NCBI GenBank assembly: GCA_016186915.1
Contig: JACPKU010000006.1
Span: forward strand, 249,619-313,618
Direction: 5' to 3'
Origin: Candidatus Doudnabacteria bacterium
GTDB taxonomy: Bacteria; Patescibacteriota; Doudnabacteria; UBA920; O2-02-FULL-48-8
Length of the DNA stretch: 64,000 bases
Shown here in pieces: positions 5,605 through 64,000 of the stretch. The notes under the pieces are model-generated. The model made no database searches. It saw only the letters and a program-made list of their open reading frames with translations, and was not told the origin of the DNA. How positions within the stretch are numbered: the first letter of the stretch is position 1; each line of letters begins with the position of its first letter. The position numbers were made by a program, and so were the translations under genes.

Positions 5605-5741
5605 AATTCCTGATGCATATTACTTGGCTTTAATTATACCATAAATCTTCAGTATCACCAAAAAAACGAGATAATATTAATATAAAAGATAATAATATGT
5701 GGCGCTATTGATGTTGATGTTAGTTGATGTTATTTTAGAAT

Positions 5742-6436: not shown

Positions 6437-6898
6437 TCACTCTATCGACACCACTTCATATTCGGTTTCGCCCATGGGGGTTTTCACGCTGACCTTGCTG
6501 CCATTTTTCGCGCCCAACAAAGATTTGCCAACCAGAGATTCGTTGGAGATGCGCCCCGCCGCGGGATTGGCTTCGTTCGATCCAACGATTGTATATTTTA
6601 CTTTTGTACCGTTGGTCTGTAATACCACCGTACAACCGATGGTGACTTCTTCACGGTTCTTATCGTGAGTAATCAGTTCTGCGTTTTTTATCATTTCCTC
6701 CAGCTCCTTGATTCTGCCCTCGATAAATGACTGCTCTTCCTTCGCCTGCGCGTAGTCCGCATTCTCGGATAAATCTCCATGCGAAACAGCTTCCTGAATT
6801 CTCTCAATCACTTCTTTGCGCCGTTCATCTTTAAGGATGCGCAACTCATCCTTTAATTTTTTTAGCCCGTCTTCGGTTAACAATACTTTTTTTTGCAT
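6437..6898 (-). CDS. greA: transcription elongation factor GreA
   Basis: Coiled-coil N-terminus plus FKBP-like C-terminus; 153 aa. Confidence 0.9.
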   Translation of the reverse strand: MQKKVLLTEDGLKKLKDELRILKDERRKEVIERIQEAVSHGDLSENADYAQAKEEQSFIEGRIKELEEMIKNAELITHDKNREEVTIGCTVVLQTNGTKVKYTIVGSNEANPAAGRISNESLVGKSLLGAKNGSKVSVKTPMGETEYEVVSIE

Positions 6899-49096: not shown

Positions 49097-49125
49097 TTGA
49101 CAATTAAACCGTTTCAACCTATGCT
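49097..49125 (+). promoter_or_regulatory. promoter TTGACA-N17-TATGCT for ORF 49176
   Basis: Seen in the sequence. Confidence 0.5.
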
Positions 49126-49175
49126 GGTGGCGAAGTAATTCCGCTTCTCCAAACAACCCTTAGGAGGATCTGATC

Positions 49176-49397
49176 ATGGGCAAGGGAAGATTTGCGGAAG
49201 AGATCGAGCACAAGCCGTCATCGCCCGGCCAAGAAATGGTGGATCTCGTGCTCACCTGCGGCATCTCGGCCCTCGCCGGATCTCAGGATACGGTCGAATG
49301 CCGCATCACGGACCACGAGCTTGGCAAGACCTACACCGGCACGGGGAGCACGGAGTCCGAGGCCCGCGATGACGCGCTCGGCAAACTGAATCGCTGA
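49176..49397 (+). CDS. GC-rich 73-aa hypothetical protein with RBS AGGAGG and a terminator
   Basis: About 60% GC. The AGGAGGATCTGATCATG translation-initiation region resembles the AGGAGGATCTCATG of ORF 62309. Terminator GAGTGAG...CTCACTC-T8 at 49420-49457. Confidence 0.5.
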   Translation: MGKGRFAEEIEHKPSSPGQEMVDLVLTCGISALAGSQDTVECRITDHELGKTYTGTGSTESEARDDALGKLNR

Positions 49398-49568
49398 CCG
49401 ACGGGTGGTCTTCGGCGGTGAGTGAGGTTCTGACAAAGAATCTCACTCATTTTTTTTAAAATATATCTCCTTACAACCCCCAGCGAGGGTTTTGGTTTAC
49501 CCGCCGGACTTTCGGGTGCCGATCATTCGACCGGACAAGTGTCTCGAAACGAGACTCGGACTTACATA

Positions 49569-49595
49569 CATTCATACACGACTGTATGAATGTAT
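49569..49595. repeat. 28-bp palindrome, copy 4 (27/28), intergenic
   Basis: Seen in the sequence; about 60 bp upstream of the -35 of ORF 49690. Confidence 0.9.
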
Positions 49596-49654
49596 GGCAA
49601 ATCCCAACCCCCATATTTGCAGGCAACACAAGCAACAATACACAATACTTCTTT

Positions 49655-60163: not shown

Positions 60164-60517
60164 ATTTTTGGCTTTAAAAAAACCGGCCAGATCCTTTTCC
60201 GAACACAGTGTATGTGTTCGGAACAAAACCTAAACGGTTTTTCTAACAGGATTCAGTTAATGTTGTGTAAAAATTTTTAACCTCTTTATGAGAACTAATT
60301 TGATCTTTCGCCGATCTCCTTGTGCCAGGATCAGCACGATCGAATTACTTTTAGCTCTTTCTTCTACTCTCCGCTCTATCTAGCGAGGGTTTTGCTGTAA
60401 AAAACAATCTCGCAGGCCGAAGTCGTAATGTCACGACGAGGCCGAGAGCTTAGGTGCGAATTTTACGTCTAGCGAAATTCGACACCGTGTTTTTTTCAGC
60501 GAAACACGAGCGCTCCT

Positions 60518-60914: not shown

Positions 60915-62096
60915 TTATTTATTAATCTTCGTAACCACTCCCGCGCCCACAGTGTGTCCGCCTTCTCGAATGGCAAATCTTTGCTTTTCTTCCAAGGCCA
61001 CTGGGTTAATCAATTTAACCTTCAAGGTCACGGTGTCGCCCGGCATAACCATTTCTTGTCCCTCTGGCAGCTCAACCTCGCCGGTAACATCCGTGGTTCG
61101 AATATAGAACTGGGGCTTATAACCTTTGAAGAACGGAGTGTGTCGGCCGCCCTCTTCTTTGGTCAAAATGTAAATCTCTGCGTCAAACTCGGTATGAGGT
61201 GTGACTGATCCTGGTTTGGCCAAAACCTGCCCTCGTTCCACTTCTTCTTTTTTGGTTCCTCGAAGCAAGACGCCTGCGTTGTCTCCGGCTCTTCCGCTAT
61301 CCAGTTGCTTGTTGAACATTTCAATTCCAGTAACCACGGTTTTTTGAGTTGGTTTCAACCCTACAATTTCCACTTCTTCATTTAGCTTTACTTCACCGCG
61401 CTCGATTCTGCCAGTGACCACCGTGCCTCGGCCTTCAATGGTGAAGATGTCTTCGATCGGCATCAGGTAAGGCTTGTCAGTTTCTCTGACTGGTTCCGGA
61501 ATATAGGTGTCGACAGCTTCCAACAGTTTTTCAATTGAAGCAGCCCCTTCCGGGTCATCTTCCAAAGCCTTCAAAGCGGAGCCGCGAATGATTGGCGTAT
61601 CTTTTCCAGGAAACTGATATTTATTCAAAAGTTCTCGCACTTCTTCTTCCACCAAATCCACCAATTCCTTGTCATCCACCATATCCACCTTGTTCAAAAA
61701 CACGACAATGTAAGGAACACCGACTTGTTTAGCCAAGAGAATGTGTTCCCTGGTTTGAGGCATCGGACCATCCGCGGCAGACACCACCAAGATCGCGCCG
61801 TCCATCTGCGCCGCTCCAGTAATCATGTTTTTGATGTAGTCAGCGTGTCCCGGAGCATCGACGTGTGCGTAGTGGCGCTTTTCCGTCTCATACTCCACGT
61901 GCGAGGTGTTGATAGTAATACCTCTTTCTTTCTCTTCTGGAGCATTGTCAATCGAACTAAAATCTCGCTCTTTCGCCAAACCCTTTTTAGCCAAGACGTG
62001 GGTTATAGCAGCAGTCAGAGTGGTTTTGCCGTGGTCAACGTGACCGATTGTTCCAATGTTTACGTGTGGTTTGGAACGATTAAATTGTTCAGCCAT
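60915..62096 (-). CDS. tuf: elongation factor Tu
   Basis: [10 protein letters not shown]; 393 aa. Confidence 0.95.
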
Positions 62097-62257
62097 ATTA
62101 ATTCCTTAATTAATTACTTATTAATGCTTAATAGATTATAAAGGATTTTTGTCTACCTGTAAAGCTTAAGACAAATAAAAAACCTTGATCTTGGATTTTT
62201 CTCGATCTTCCCCACTATACCAGAAACCCCCAGGCTTGTAAAGAAATGGTAGCCAAA

Positions 62258-62286
62258 TTGCAAAAAGATCCAATAAATACTATACT
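62258..62286 (+). promoter_or_regulatory. promoter TTGCAA-N17-TATACT for ORF 62309
   Basis: Seen in the sequence; the ORF-track start at 62246 lies upstream of the -10. Confidence 0.5.
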
Positions 62287-62308
62287 TTTAGGCAACAAGG
62301 AGGATCTC

Positions 62309-62686
62309 ATGGCAATTGCTTTTACTGTCGTTGCGATCGCTGTTCCCCTGATCGCGTTTGTCCTTGGTGTGTACTTCTACCGAACGCGTCCGAACAGAAG
62401 GTCTGGCGGAGATATCGTCTCCTCTAGAGATCACATCACGGAAGAAAAGGTCCACCGTGCGATGCAGGCTCAGTCCGACCCAGTGGAATGGGAGAGACTG
62501 CTCTCTGAGCTCGAACTACACATCCGGGAATGCAGACAGTGCCACAAGCAATTCCTTCCTTCGGTTCGCGCTGTGCGCCTCTTGCCACCAGGCGAGGTGC
62601 TCCTCAATCTCTCGCCCGAAAACGACCGATGGAACAAGATGGCGCTGGGACTCAACGCCTCTGCCGACGATCGAGCGAACGACTAA
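62309..62686 (+). CDS. GC-rich 125-aa single-TM hypothetical protein (MAIAFTVVAIAVPLIAFVLGVYF...CRQCHKQF...)
   Basis: RBS AAGGAGG. T8 run after the stop. GC-rich relative to the flanks. Confidence 0.5.
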   Translation: MAIAFTVVAIAVPLIAFVLGVYFYRTRPNRRSGGDIVSSRDHITEEKVHRAMQAQSDPVEWERLLSELELHIRECRQCHKQFLPSVRAVRLLPPGEVLLNLSPENDRWNKMALGLNASADDRAND

Positions 62687-62815
62687 CCCCGTCCCTCGGC
62701 CGTCTTTTTTTTATCCTTCCGCCCTTCCTTCTTTTCCACTCCGCGGATCAGGAGAAAAGCGAGGCGTGGATTTTCAGCAGCCTTCGGAGGCCAACACCAA
62801 CTATTTCTGTAGCGA

Positions 62816-62930
62816 GGGATTGTTGCAAAATTAACCTTCGGAAGCCGGTTCGTCCGGCTGAGAAAGTAGGCTGCATCCCGCCGAAGTTCCCACGAGGCGG
62901 GATGACAGCCGATATTTTTGCAACAATCCC
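62816..62930. ncRNA. structured element closed by a perfect 15-bp inverted repeat (GGGATTGTTGCAAAA ... TTTTGCAACAATCCC) enclosing nested and pseudoknot-capable hairpins
   Basis: GCCGG-TTCGT-CCGGC hairpin. GGCTGCATCCCGCC...GGCGGGATG-A-CAGCC helix whose loop CCGAAG can pair with the upstream CTTCGG. No ORF. Confidence 0.4.
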
Positions 62931-62970
62931 GAGCGATGACGACCGGTAATTTACAGTCAGCTCGAGCGAT

Positions 62971-64000
62971 TTATTTTCCTGTTTGTCCTACTCTTATCTT
63001 CCCTGATTCGCCCACTATCTTCTCTGCCACGTTTTTCGGCACCTCTTCGTAATGGTCAAATTCCATGCTGTAAGAAGCCTGGCCTTGCGACATTGACCGG
63101 ATCTGAGTGGCGTAGCCAAACATCTCAGCCAGAGGCACCAGCGCGTCGATCACCTTGAGATTTCCGCGGTCTGTCATTTCCAGTATCTTGCCGCGCTTGG
63201 CGTTGAGATCGCCAATCACGTCGCCCATGGCGGTTTCCGGAGTAGTGACCTCGACTTTCATTATCGGCTCAAGCAAAATTGGTTTGGCTTTTTTAAAAGC
63301 ATCCTGAAACGCCAAGGATCCTGCTATTTTAAAAGCGATCTCAGAAGAATCAACTTCATGATAACTGCCGTCAAACAAAGTGACTTTCGTATCAATCACG
63401 GGATAACCGGCAATTACACCCCTGTCCGCGGCTTCCTTGATGCCCTTATCCACTGCCGGGATATATTCACGCGGGATATCTCCGCCCACCACTTCATTGA
63501 TAAACTCATTGCCCTTGCCTGGGTCGTTTGGTTCAATCCTGATCAAAACATGGCCGTACTGCCCGCGCCCACCAGTTTGTCTGATGTATTTGCTTTCTGC
63601 TTCTGCCTTGCCCTTAATCGTTTCTTTGTAGGCCACCTGCGGGCGCCCGACATTGGCTTCCACTTTGAACTCGCGCTTCATTCTGTCCACCAAAATTTCC
63701 AAATGCAGCTCACCCATCCCGCTGATCAAAGTTTGGTTGGTCTCTTCTTCGGCGCGGACTTTGAAAGTCGGATCTTCTTCCGCCAACTTCTGCAAAGCCA
63801 ATCCCATTTTTTCTTGATCGGCCTTGGTCTTCGGCTCAATTGCCACGGAAATCACCGGTTCGGGGAAAGTAATCCTTTCCAGAATCAGCGGGTTGTCCGC
63901 GTCACACAAAGTATCCCCGGTGAAGGTATCTTTCGGGCCGACCAATGCGGCAATCTCACCGGCAAAAACCTCTTTCACTTCTTCTCGGGAATCAGCGTGC
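62971..64000 (-). CDS. fusA: elongation factor G, C-terminal part (gene continues beyond the window end)
   Basis: Domains III-V of EF-G; 335 aa within the window. Confidence 0.9.

What the first reader, a model, noticed from the sequence alone, without database searches (positions are those of the whole stretch)
62690..62960. Highly structured element with a perfect 15-bp terminal inverted repeat and pseudoknot potential between fusA and tuf
GGGATTGTTGCAAAA and its exact reverse complement enclose 85 nt containing a GCCGG/CCGGC hairpin and a 14-bp GGCUGCAUCCCGCC/GGCGGGAUG-A-CAGCC helix whose loop (CCGAAG) is complementary to upstream CUUCGG. More hairpins lie at 62700-62800 (GCCU-UCGG-AGGC; UCCGCGGA). 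The left arm starts with AGCGAGGGATTGTTG, related to AGCGAGGGTTTTG seen at 49482 and 60372. This could be a small ribozyme, riboswitch or RNA element, or a MITE-like insertion; fusA-tuf is normally contiguous.
Basis: seen in the sequence. Interest (0 to 1): 0.55.

Follow-up and report, generated by a model that had tools for sequence, protein, structure and literature searches.

The report
Conserved three-armed RNA-like repeat in CPR bacteria
The hairpin-rich stretch between fusA and tuf is one copy of a previously uncatalogued, multi-copy, about 125-base three-armed folded element found in many ultra-small (Parcubacteria/CPR) bacteria; its shape is strongly conserved by evolution but its job is still unknown.

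Summary
Window 62811-62935 (+) folds into a three-way junction closed by a perfect 15-bp stem (z = -8.4). It is not a one-off. A covariance model finds a second full copy in the S10-L3 spacer (60379-60515), and 29 further distinct copies were aligned from Doudnabacteria, Wolfebacteria and other CPR contigs. Across these 31 copies, 97% of cells pair and 35 of 41 pairs show compensatory changes. The closing stem varies in sequence, while the junction core and the termini AGCGAGG / CCGAGCG are almost invariant. No Rfam 15 family and no paper in the library matches.

Copies sit in short spacers next to housekeeping genes. They usually lie antisense to those genes, with the 3' end a few bases from the upstream gene's stop codon. 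Their positions differ between related genomes. The fusA-tuf copy is absent from the three closest relatives fetched and is flanked by a 5' and a 3' fragment of other copies.

The strand that starts with AGCGAG is the better-folding one, by G-U excess, tandem G.A pairs and free energy.

Classical MITE, riboswitch, ribosomal-protein leader and intrinsic terminator are rejected.

Best reading: a new family of insertion-prone, protein-recognised RNA modules. The function is inferred, not shown.

The parts
62811..62935 (+). Full copy of the element (125 nt), running from AGCGAGG to CCGAGCG. It is a three-way junction.
   Evidence: Covariance model R1 scores it 120 bits, E = 3e-33. Fold energy is -69.5 kcal/mol, z = -8.4.
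62816..62833 (+). P1 5' strand. It includes the perfect 15-nt inverted-repeat arm 62816-62830. G.A/A.G plus G-C, C-G pairs at 62812-62815 extend the helix.
   Evidence: Family alignment: P1 pairs covary, and the AGCGAGG/CCGAGCG termini are nearly invariant.
62834..62867 (+). P2 arm: lower helix ACCUUC/GAAAGU, a 3x2 internal loop (GGA / GA), upper helix AGCCGG/CCGGCU, loop UUCGU.
   Evidence: Model alignment; pair counts (helices 4 and 5).
62869..62910 (+). P3 arm: GGCUGCAUCCCGCC ... GGCGGGAUG-A-CAGCC, with the family-wide bulged A at 62905.
   Evidence: In one search, helix 6 is 98.7% paired and 11 of its 13 pairs show changes on both sides.
62913..62930 (+). P1 3' strand (the perfect arm is 62916-62930). 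CGAGCG at 62930-62935 overlaps its last base.
62758..62792 (+). 5' fragment of another copy (AGCGAGG + a different P1 strand + AGCCUUCGGAGGCC), truncated in P2.
   Evidence: Pattern GCGAGGN{10,25}CYTTCGNARGC matches only here and in the full copy; 0 matches are expected by chance.
62938..62968 (+). 3' fragment of another copy (GACGACCGGTAATTTACAGTCAGCTCGAGCG). It ends 2 nt from the fusA stop codon.
   Evidence: (repeat D1). The pattern was chosen after seeing the sequence, so this is supportive only.
60382..60512 (+). Second full copy, of a divergent subfamily, in the S10-L3 spacer. Its CGAGCG ends 5 nt from the S10 stop codon.
   Evidence: R1 scores it 79.5 bits, E = 4e-21. It folds with the same architecture.
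49482..49495 (+). AGCGAGGGTTTTGG, a 14-nt match to the 5' end of the 60382 copy. What follows is structured but is not a family member.
   Evidence: No R1 hit even with filters off.
62309..62686 (+). 125-aa ORFan with an N-terminal hydrophobic helix and RBS AAGGAGG. It lies antisense in the fusA-tuf spacer and is part of the same inserted block.
   Evidence: Only itself among 5.8 billion proteins. No relative in genome contigs. Found on three contigs from three sequencing runs, SRR12113424, SRR12113384 and SRR12113383.
62666..62710 (+). Terminator-like hairpin (GACGAUCGAG ... CUCGGCCGUC) followed by U8, after the ORFan and upstream of the element.
   Evidence: Read directly from the sequence. 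It was not listed by the scan because the loop is too long.
62135..62242 (-). Two sigma-70-like promoters facing tuf: TTTACA-17-TATAAT and TTTACA-17-TATAGT.
   Evidence: 11/12 and 10/12 matches. These are consensus matches only.

Best explanation
Window 62811-62935 is one copy of a previously uncatalogued family of 110-165-nt structured elements. The family is present in several copies per genome in Parcubacteria-type CPR bacteria (Doudnabacteria, Wolfebacteria and relatives).

Shown:
- The unit is a three-way junction. A long closing stem (P1) is free to change sequence as long as it pairs.
- The first few base pairs of all three arms are almost invariant. So are two 'CGA-GG / CC-GAG' tandem G.A motifs, a bulged A and the termini AGCGAGG / CCGAGCG.
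- Copies sit in short spacers beside housekeeping genes.
- Their positions differ between related genomes.
- This particular copy is an insertion absent from the closest relatives, and it lies among fragments of two other copies.

Inferred:
- The strand that folds is the one that starts with AGCGAG (the window + strand). It acts as RNA.
- Its invariant core is a docking site for a protein.
- That recognition keeps the fold intact, either to propagate the element (a non-autonomous mobile module) or for a host task.
- The common antisense orientation reflects selection against placing the active RNA inside essential operon transcripts. In some subfamilies the element also carries outward-facing expression signals for the downstream gene.
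For: - Real and non-random fold.
- Family: pattern scans plus model R1 gave 31 distinct copies. Non-CPR and viral pattern hits are not members.
- Covariation: 97.2% of cells are paired against 25-44% when partners are slid. 35 of 41 pairs have changes on both sides. 0 of 500 shuffles reach any measure. The independent RNAalifold run gives 22 of 41 compensatory pairs on a MAFFT alignment.
- Multi-copy: 2 copies in the window; 2 each in L021, L014, L019 and L038; four copies on three contigs of one MAG.
- Mobility and insertion: the fusA-tuf copy is absent in L004, L005 and L006. Copies lie at fusA|tuf, tuf|S10, S10|L3, L3|L4 or nowhere in the same operon of different Doudnabacteria. Subfamilies are shared between genomes at non-orthologous loci. 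Truncated copies sit next to full ones. All three Logan contigs end inside the element.
- Strand: G-U 31 cells versus A-C 11 (14 versus 9 pair positions). The + strand is more stable in 28 of 31 copies, by 6.1 kcal/mol on average. Tandem G.A pairs and purine-rich loops exist only on that strand (sequence).
- Context: about 16 of 23 loci have both neighbours antisense, and the stop codon of the upstream gene is 0-5 nt from CGAGCG in at least 13 copies.
- In L033, L044 and L051, a four-fold TACGAAT cluster reaching to within a few bases of the downstream gene's start codon (including its putative Shine-Dalgarno bases) travels with the element.
Against: - There is no expression data.
- No consistent sigma-70-like promoter lies upstream of AGCGAG, and no terminator lies downstream.
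- No transposase, reverse transcriptase or other candidate partner is adjacent to any copy.
- There is no target-site duplication and no conserved insertion target.
- Copies within one genome are only 50-70% identical, so there has been no recent burst. That fits long-lived functional loci as well as, or better than, a selfish repeat.
- The strand evidence is moderate. 12 of the 31 G-U cells come from one loop-closing pair in related sequences, and the alignment was fitted to a model built on that strand.
- One intact copy lies in the sense orientation between two genes (L018).
Confidence: 0.45

Rival explanations
1. It is a sense-strand intercistronic mRNA element. The reverse complement (CGCUCGG...CCUCGCU) is co-transcribed with the flanking genes. 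It acts directly after the stop codon as a processing site, a 3'-end stabiliser or an insulator between transcription units, as REP/BIME or ERIC copies do in enterobacteria.
For: In about 16 of 23 loci the element lies between co-directional genes, with its CGAGCG end 0-5 nt from the upstream stop codon and 13-130 nt from the next start codon. The neighbours are highly expressed housekeeping genes whose expression levels need to be set independently: dnaK|dnaJ, rpoC|, S8|L6, S10|L3, fusA|tuf. The - strand also folds very stably, at -67.1 kcal/mol with z = -6.7.
Against: On that strand the invariant motifs become tandem C.U/U.C mismatches and pyrimidine loops. G-U pairs become A-C mismatches, 31 versus 11 cells. 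The - strand is less stable in 28 of 31 copies. A stabiliser or RNase III site would not need an invariant junction core. Neither strand has a U-tract after the stem. Several copies lie in divergent or sense contexts (L018, L019, L035, L037, L052).
Confidence: 0.2
2. It is a new class of small self-cleaving ribozyme carried by a selfish repeat. Sense insertions would cut host mRNAs, so antisense copies are the ones that survive.
For: It is a three-way junction with about 30 near-invariant nucleotides around the junction and freely covarying distal stems, as in hammerheads. It is dispersed and multi-copy, and its orientation bias runs against essential operons.
Against: No known ribozyme model matches, even at E <= 10. 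Only three junction nucleotides are unpaired. The conserved bases lie mostly inside helices, which looks more like a protein-binding site than a catalytic pocket. The hammerhead core CUGANGA/GAAA is absent: the consensus is CCGAGAACGCAGG. There is no biochemical evidence.
Confidence: 0.08
3. It is a stand-alone host small-RNA gene family of paralogous sRNAs with a cellular function, for example a protein sponge or an RNA-repair or quality-control cofactor. In this reading it is not mobile, and its patchy positions reflect gene loss and rearrangement.
For: The core is deeply conserved between Doudnabacteria and Wolfebacteria. All 31 copies are structurally intact despite 30-50% divergence. One copy lies 133 nt upstream of rtcA in the same orientation.
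Against: Different spacers of the same operon are occupied in close relatives. Truncated copies sit nested beside full ones. Subfamilies are shared at non-orthologous loci. There are no recognisable promoter or terminator signals.
Confidence: 0.2
4. It is a classical MITE mobilised by a DDE transposase that binds the 15-bp terminal inverted repeats.
For: A perfect 15-bp terminal inverted repeat, a size of about 125 bp and an intergenic insertion.
Against: The repeat sequence occurs nowhere else in the window, even with 3 mismatches. Across the family the terminal stem covaries while the interior is conserved, the opposite of a transposase-bound TIR. There is no target-site duplication. The two window copies are at most about 50% identical.
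Confidence: 0.03

Closest known systems
REP/BIME and REPIN elements (RAYT-associated extragenic palindromes of proteobacteria)
   Same: Multi-copy, extragenic, palindromic, often just after stop codons inside or at the end of operons, and long-lived in a lineage. Pairing is conserved rather than stem sequence.
   Different: REPs are simple 20-40-nt hairpins, or doublets of them, with a 5' GTAG. This element is a three-way junction with an invariant junction core and AGCGAGG/CCGAGCG termini. No RAYT gene was seen near any copy, and the taxon is different (CPR).
ERIC/IRU and Correia (NEMIS) elements: 100-155-bp MITE-like repeats transcribed within operons
   Same: About 125 bp, a long terminal inverted repeat, insertion into spacers of operons, and possible outward promoter or RBS effects.
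   Different: Those families keep their terminal repeat sequence, and Correia duplicates a TA target. Here the terminal stem differs in every copy and no duplication is seen. Copies are far more diverged and show compensatory changes.
Hammerhead and twister-sister self-cleaving ribozymes
   Same: A small three-way junction with a conserved core and variable stems, dispersed in several copies per genome in intergenic DNA.
   Different: The core sequences do not match, and there is no Rfam hit at E <= 10. The conserved positions are mostly base-paired. Cleavage has not been tested.
Structured interspersed repeats of the Bacillus cereus group (bcr families; recalled from my own knowledge, not tested here)
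   Same: Dispersed repeats of about 100-160 bp. My recollection, not checked here, is that predicted RNA folds supported by compensatory mutations were reported for some of them.
   Different: Unrelated sequence and taxon. Some bcr elements have TIRs and target duplications.
Ribosomal-protein operon leaders (for example the S10/L4 leader)
   Same: Some copies lie inside the str/S10/spc operon region.
   Different: The better-folding strand is antisense to the operon. The same element flanks dnaK, rpoC, gyrA, alaS, hisS, mreC and a two-component system. No Rfam leader matches.

Membership tests
Any Rfam 15 family, including hammerhead, twister, twister-sister, pistol, hatchet, hairpin, HDV-like, riboswitches, r-protein leaders, SRP, 5S and Y RNA | A covariance-model score at or above the gathering threshold, or at least a suggestive E-value | tested here: not met
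   There were 0 hits at gathering score in the whole window. In ten related loci the only hits were tRNAs. With E <= 10 on 62000-63100 and on a long-type copy, only chance-level hits appeared, at 12-17 bits against gathering scores of 41-90.
MITE (DDE-transposase type) | Terminal inverted repeat sequence shared by the copies of the family | tested here: not met
   The 15-mer occurs only as this copy's own two arms, with up to 3 mismatches allowed. P1 pairs covary across the 31 copies.
MITE (DDE-transposase type) | Target-site duplication flanking the element | tested here: not met
   The flanks of all 31 copies show no consistent direct repeat.
REP/REPIN | Short imperfect palindrome preceded by GTAG/GTGG, with a cognate RAYT gene in the genome | tested here: inconclusive
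   Only this copy happens to have GTAG before AGCGAGG; the others have CTAG, TAAG and similar. The unit is branched, not a simple palindrome. No HUH transposase lies next to any copy. Whole genomes could not be searched.
Riboswitch or cis-regulatory leader | Constant position and orientation upstream of functionally related genes | tested here: not met
   The neighbours are unrelated: translation, chaperone, RNA polymerase, gyrase, tRNA synthetases, cell shape and signalling. In most loci the folding strand is antisense to them.
Hammerhead ribozyme | Three-way junction with core CUGANGA ... GAAA and a UH cleavage site | tested here: not met
   The junction strands are A and GG only. The nearest strings are CUGAGAA in this copy and CCGAGAAC in the consensus. 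There is no RF00163 or RF00008 hit.
Intrinsic (Rho-independent) terminator | G+C-rich stem immediately followed by a U-tract | tested here: not met
   The 10 nt after the closing stem show no consistent U-run on either strand (my reading of the flanks printed). The scan lists no terminator at the element.
Integron attC site | R''/R' core sites (RYYYAAC ... GTTRRRY) at the ends of an imperfect hairpin, in cassette arrays next to intI | tested here: not met
   The termini are AGCGAGG and CCGAGCG, with no GTTRRRY. Copies are scattered singly among housekeeping genes.
The new family defined here (model R1) | P1-P2-P3 three-way junction, AGCGAGG/CCGAGCG termini, the CCGAGARCGCAGG linker and GACAGCCGR with a bulged A | tested here: met
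   The window copy scores 120 bits, E = 3e-33, full length 1-125. All motifs are present: CUGAGAAAGUAGG and GACAGCCGA.

The most novel reading that the evidence does not exclude
The family is a new class of catalytic or mobilisation-competent RNA. It would be either a self-cleaving ribozyme or the RNA moiety of a so-far unrecognised RNA-mediated mobile element. It has colonised the intergenic spacers of streamlined CPR genomes, and the antisense bias arises because the active strand is harmful inside essential operon transcripts.
Probability: 0.12. Interest if true: 0.85.

Novelty: new variant of a known kind. Interest (0 to 1): 0.6.

Why it matters
CPR/Patescibacteria have tiny, streamlined genomes and almost no experimentally characterised non-coding RNAs. 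Even so, they keep several copies of a 110-165-nt element whose fold is among the most strongly covarying one can see with about 30 sequences. A family like this, absent from Rfam, is a ready-made candidate for a new protein-RNA partnership, a new ribozyme or a new type of mobile element. Because it sits between essential genes, it may also shape operon expression in these organisms. In practice it breaks metagenomic assemblies at conserved marker loci (the fusA-tuf-S10 region), and gene callers can place spurious ORFs across it.

Tried and rejected
- Rfam at gathering and at permissive thresholds on the window and on related loci: nothing. ARAGORN: nothing.
- Searching for more copies of the 15-bp repeat: none. 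This is why the family had to be found through the conserved core instead.
- The ORFan next to the element as a handle: no homologues among 5.8 billion proteins and no relative in genome contigs. It only retrieved the same organism.
- Viral contigs: two pattern hits, neither recognised by the model.
- The non-CPR pattern hits in genome and metagenome scans are chance matches.
- The element at 49482 shares only the first 14 nt and is not a member, even with filters off.
- The antisense ORFs in the fusA-tuf spacers of other Doudnabacteria are not homologous to the window's ORFan. The upstream regions of the two + strand small ORFs in the window share only the ribosome-binding site.
- I compared the core by eye with 5S rRNA loop E, SRP RNA helix 8, the hairpin ribozyme loops, group II intron domain V, K-turns and 16S helix 20. 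Each showed only short, order-inconsistent resemblances, and no model hit backs any of them.
- Literature searches by taxon, by topic and by literal core sequence found no description.
- An IS200/IS605-like single-strand DNA mechanism was considered. By GC skew the better-folding strand is the leading-strand template, the opposite of what that mechanism predicts, and no TnpA was seen.

Full report
**1. What is in the window**

Nearly all genes in the window are on the - strand.
- fusA ends at 62971-62973.
- tuf runs from 62096 to 60915.
- rpsJ (S10) runs from 60847 to 60518.
- rplC (L3) runs from 60226 to 59561.

The fusA-tuf spacer is 874 bp. The 15-mer GGGATTGTTGCAAAA lies at 62816-62830 and its exact complement at 62916-62930. 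These are its only occurrences in the window, even with three mismatches allowed.

The 141 nt around it fold into a three-way junction. The + strand gives -69.5 kcal/mol, z = -8.4, and none of 200 shuffles folds as well. The - strand gives -67.1 kcal/mol, z = -6.7.

The organism is a Candidatus Doudnabacteria MAG. Its Tuf is 100% identical to an NCBI protein on a 420-kb contig.

**2. It is a family, not a singleton**

AGCGAGGGWTT occurs exactly three times in 64 kb, at 49482, 60382 and 62811. All three are on the + strand and intergenic. The 60382 region folds with the same plan: a closing stem of about 19 bp and two hairpins.

I fetched the str/S10 region of relatives through Tuf homologues. 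In L004 (Tuf 94%) and L005/L006 (90%), the S10-L3 spacer holds a clear homologue. Their fusA-tuf spacers are only 320 and 126 bp and hold none.

A pattern built from the shared core was scanned over GTDB species genomes and JGI metagenomes:
- In genomes it returned six Doudnabacteria loci, one Wolfebacteria locus and one unclassified bacterium, plus chance hits in GC-rich genomes.
- In metagenomes it returned 21 CPR-type contigs.

A covariance model (R1) built from 13 Doudnabacteria-type sequences recovers all of these at 44-130 bits. It rejects every non-CPR and viral pattern hit. It also finds further copies that the pattern missed: L021:1281, L014:3907, L019:6082, L038:13 and L056:1523.

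With filters off, the window holds exactly two full copies:
- 62808-62938, at 120 bits.
- 60379-60515, at 79.5 bits.

The 49482 element is not a member. It shares only the first 14 nt.

**3. Anatomy and conservation**

The unit reads as follows, 5' to 3' on the strand that starts with AGCGAG:

(U)AGCGA-GG | P1 5' strand, about 16-18 nt | GCYUUC-GNA-[P2 hairpin]-GA-GAAMGC | A | GGCUGC-[P3]-G-A-CAGCC | GR | P1 3' strand | CC-GAGCG.

- Doudnabacteria copies are 107-129 nt, with a short P2.
- Wolfebacteria-like copies are 142-165 nt. Their longer P2 carries a conserved GCAUGGU bulge.
- The junction itself has only three unpaired bases.
- Conservation is concentrated in the first base pairs of all three arms, in the bulged A of P3, and in two copies of one motif: 5'-CGA-GG/CC-GAG-3'. 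This is a C-G pair, then tandem G.A/A.G, then G-C pairs. One copy is at the foot of P1. The other, with one extra bulged base, is inside P2.

On the 31 distinct copies:
- 97.2% of cells form standard pairs, against 25-44% when partners are slid by 1-3 columns.
- 35 of 41 pairs show changes on both sides.
- No shuffle out of 500 reaches any of the five measures.

That alignment was fitted to the model. The independent MAFFT/RNAalifold run on 13 sequences already gave 22 of 41 compensatory pairs.

P3 loops range from 3 to 14 nt with unrelated sequences.

**4. Which strand folds**

Three observations favour the strand that starts with AGCGAG (the window + strand):
- G-U/U-G pairs outnumber A-C/C-A by 31 to 11 cells, at 14 versus 9 pair positions.
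- That strand is the more stable RNA in 28 of 31 copies. The mean difference is 6.1 kcal/mol, and it reaches 17 kcal/mol in long-type copies.
- On that strand the invariant non-Watson-Crick elements are tandem G.A pairs, a bulged A and purine-rich loops. On the other strand they would be C.U/U.C mismatches and pyrimidine loops.

I rate this as moderately strong. Twelve of the G-U cells come from a single loop-closing pair in related sequences, and the alignment was made with a model of this strand.

**5. Genomic context**

In about 16 of 23 loci both neighbours are antisense to the folding strand. The CGAGCG end lies 0-5 nt from the stop codon of the upstream gene in at least 13 copies. The AGCGAG end lies 13-130 nt from the start codon of the next gene.

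Neighbouring gene pairs include:
- FusA|Tuf, Tuf|S10, S10|L3, L3|L4, S8|L6 and S9|.
- DnaK|DnaJ, RpoC|FtsK, GyrA| and AlaRS|.
- HisRS|S21, MreC| and a histidine kinase|response regulator pair.

There are exceptions. One copy is in the sense orientation between two genes (L018). One lies between convergent genes (L019:6082). Several lie in divergent intergenic regions (L014, L019:7479, L035, L037 upstream of rtcA, L052).

No transposase, reverse transcriptase or integrase lies next to any copy. Neither strand has a U-tract after the closing stem, so it is not an intrinsic terminator (my reading of the flanks). No consistent sigma-70-like promoter precedes AGCGAG.

In three different long-type loci (dnaK|dnaJ, S8|L6 and one short contig), a four-fold TACGAAT cluster lies on the AGCGAG side and reaches to within a few bases of the neighbour's start codon, so it includes that gene's putative Shine-Dalgarno bases. 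In L033 and L051 the motif occurs nowhere else in the locus, and in L044 there are only two stray single copies elsewhere. That subfamily therefore carries an outward-facing 5'-UTR, and possibly a promoter, for the downstream host gene.

**6. Evidence that copies come and go**

- Within the same operon, different Doudnabacteria carry copies in different places:
  - fusA|tuf and S10|L3 in the window.
  - S10|L3 only in L004-L006.
  - tuf|S10 and L3|L4 in L021.
  - No confident copy within the roughly 21 kb fetched for L055, L057 and L058 (one weak 24-bit match in L057). L056 has a copy elsewhere in the fetched locus.
- The window's S10-L3 copy belongs to a different subfamily from the L004 copy at the same site. 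Its nearest relative lies after a LigD gene in another genome.
- The fusA-tuf copy is nearest to L021's tuf|S10 copy.
- The two window copies are at most about 50% identical, so there has been no recent burst.
- Truncated copies adjoin full ones:
  - Window 62758-62792 is a 5' fragment.
  - Window 62938-62968 is a 3' fragment abutting the fusA stop codon.
  - Similar arrangements occur in L010, L026, L032, L045 and L047.
- All three Logan contigs carrying the neighbouring ORFan end inside the element, at about window 62914, 62856 and 62856 by my offset arithmetic. This is as expected for a repeat or a strong palindrome.

In order it holds the terminator-like hairpin of an antisense ORFan, a 5' fragment, a full copy and a 3' fragment.

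**7. Interpretation**

The pattern is a variable but always pairing terminal stem with an invariant interior. This is the opposite of a transposase-bound TIR, so a classical MITE is rejected. There is also no target duplication. Riboswitch and ribosomal-protein leader are rejected by the diversity and the strand of the neighbours.

What remains is an RNA-like (or, less likely, single-stranded-DNA-like) module whose fold is the selected trait. It is insertion-prone on evolutionary time scales.

I commit, at roughly 45%, to the following. The + strand RNA is the active form. Its invariant junction and its twin G.A motifs are a protein-docking surface. This recognition serves the element's persistence and spread or a host task. 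The antisense bias reflects selection against placing that RNA inside essential transcripts, helped in some subfamilies by outward expression signals.

Shown: the fold, the family, the covariation, the multi-copy state, the patchy positions and the insertion at this locus. Inferred: transcription, the protein partner, the mechanism of spread and the reason for the orientation bias.

Rivals:
- A sense-strand intercistronic processing or stability element (about 20%).
- A non-mobile host sRNA gene family (about 20%).
- A new self-cleaving ribozyme (about 8%).
- A classical MITE (about 3%).

**8. Comparison with known systems, and novelty**

It behaves most like REP/REPIN or ERIC/Correia-type intergenic repeats in where it lives. 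In how it evolves, it resembles small structured RNAs such as hammerheads. It meets the membership criteria of none of them (see the membership table).

No Rfam 15 family and no paper in the searchable library describes it. I cannot exclude a description in literature outside that library.

I class it as a new variant of a known kind: a structured dispersed intergenic element. There is a minority chance (about 12%) that it is something categorically new.

Noticed in passing
window 62309-62686 (+); L055 9438-9767 (-); L056 9590-9820 (-); L057 9342-9644 (-): The fusA-tuf spacer of several Doudnabacteria holds a small protein gene antisense to the operon (76-125 aa). The window ORF and the L055 ORF, whose DNA I read, each have a good RBS and a terminator. 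The four proteins are not homologous to one another, and the window's is an ORFan among 5.8 billion proteins. This spacer seems to be a cradle or dumping ground for novel small genes.
   Followed up: partly
window 49098-49625 (+): A complete small + strand transcription unit lies in the spacer after secY: TTGACA-17-TATGCT, RBS AGGAGG, a 73-aa ORF at 49176-49397 and a terminator hairpin with a T-run at about 49418-49458. It is followed by a separate structured region that starts with the family's 5' 14-mer AGCGAGGGTTTTGG and contains a perfect 14-bp AT-rich hairpin. That region is not a family member.
   Followed up: partly
L033 8864-8895; L044 2436-2467; L051 418-449; L004 3814-3862: Four-fold TACGAAT/ATTCGTA clusters with 7-10-bp spacing lie next to the element and directly upstream of the neighbouring gene's start codon. 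In L033 and L051 the motif occurs nowhere else in the locus; L044 has two stray single copies elsewhere. They could be a promoter or operator, or part of an extended element.
   Followed up: partly
L045 7246-7405 versus L047 4476-4635: Two near-identical strains differ in the P2 hairpin tip by an exact inversion of the loop (AAAGCAUU versus AAUGCUUU). This is a hairpin-loop flip of the kind produced by template switching in palindromes.
   Followed up: no
L032 about 5670-5730; L045/L047 3' flank; L010 about 6792-6840: Partial copies are fused to full ones. In L032 a fragment is duplicated together with about 15 nt of the S9 3' end. In L045 and L047 a second CCGAGCG lies directly before the rpoC stop codon.
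   Followed up: no
L030 5310-8984 (GyrA); L045 7549-11130 and L047 808-4377 (FtsK): Genes beside copies of the element, GyrA upstream in L030 and FtsK downstream in L045 and L047, carry inteins (Intein_splicing; LAGLIDADG_3 in FtsK). This is another sign that conserved housekeeping loci in these CPR genomes collect selfish insertions.
   Followed up: no
L005 4017-4688; L006 4018-4689; L055 12563-13165; L057 12570-13238; L058 12515-13192: A glycerophosphodiester phosphodiesterase (GDPD) gene is inserted between rplC (L3) and rplD (L4) in several Doudnabacteria. It is absent from the window, L004, L021 and L056.
   Followed up: no
window 62135-62242 (-): Two strong sigma-70-like promoters face tuf, so tuf is probably transcribed independently of fusA in this organism.
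   Followed up: no
L001 end (about window 62914); L002 and L003 ends (about window 62856): Independent Logan assemblies of three sequencing runs all break inside the element. This is a practical warning that the repeat fragments CPR assemblies at phylogenetic marker loci.
   Followed up: partly
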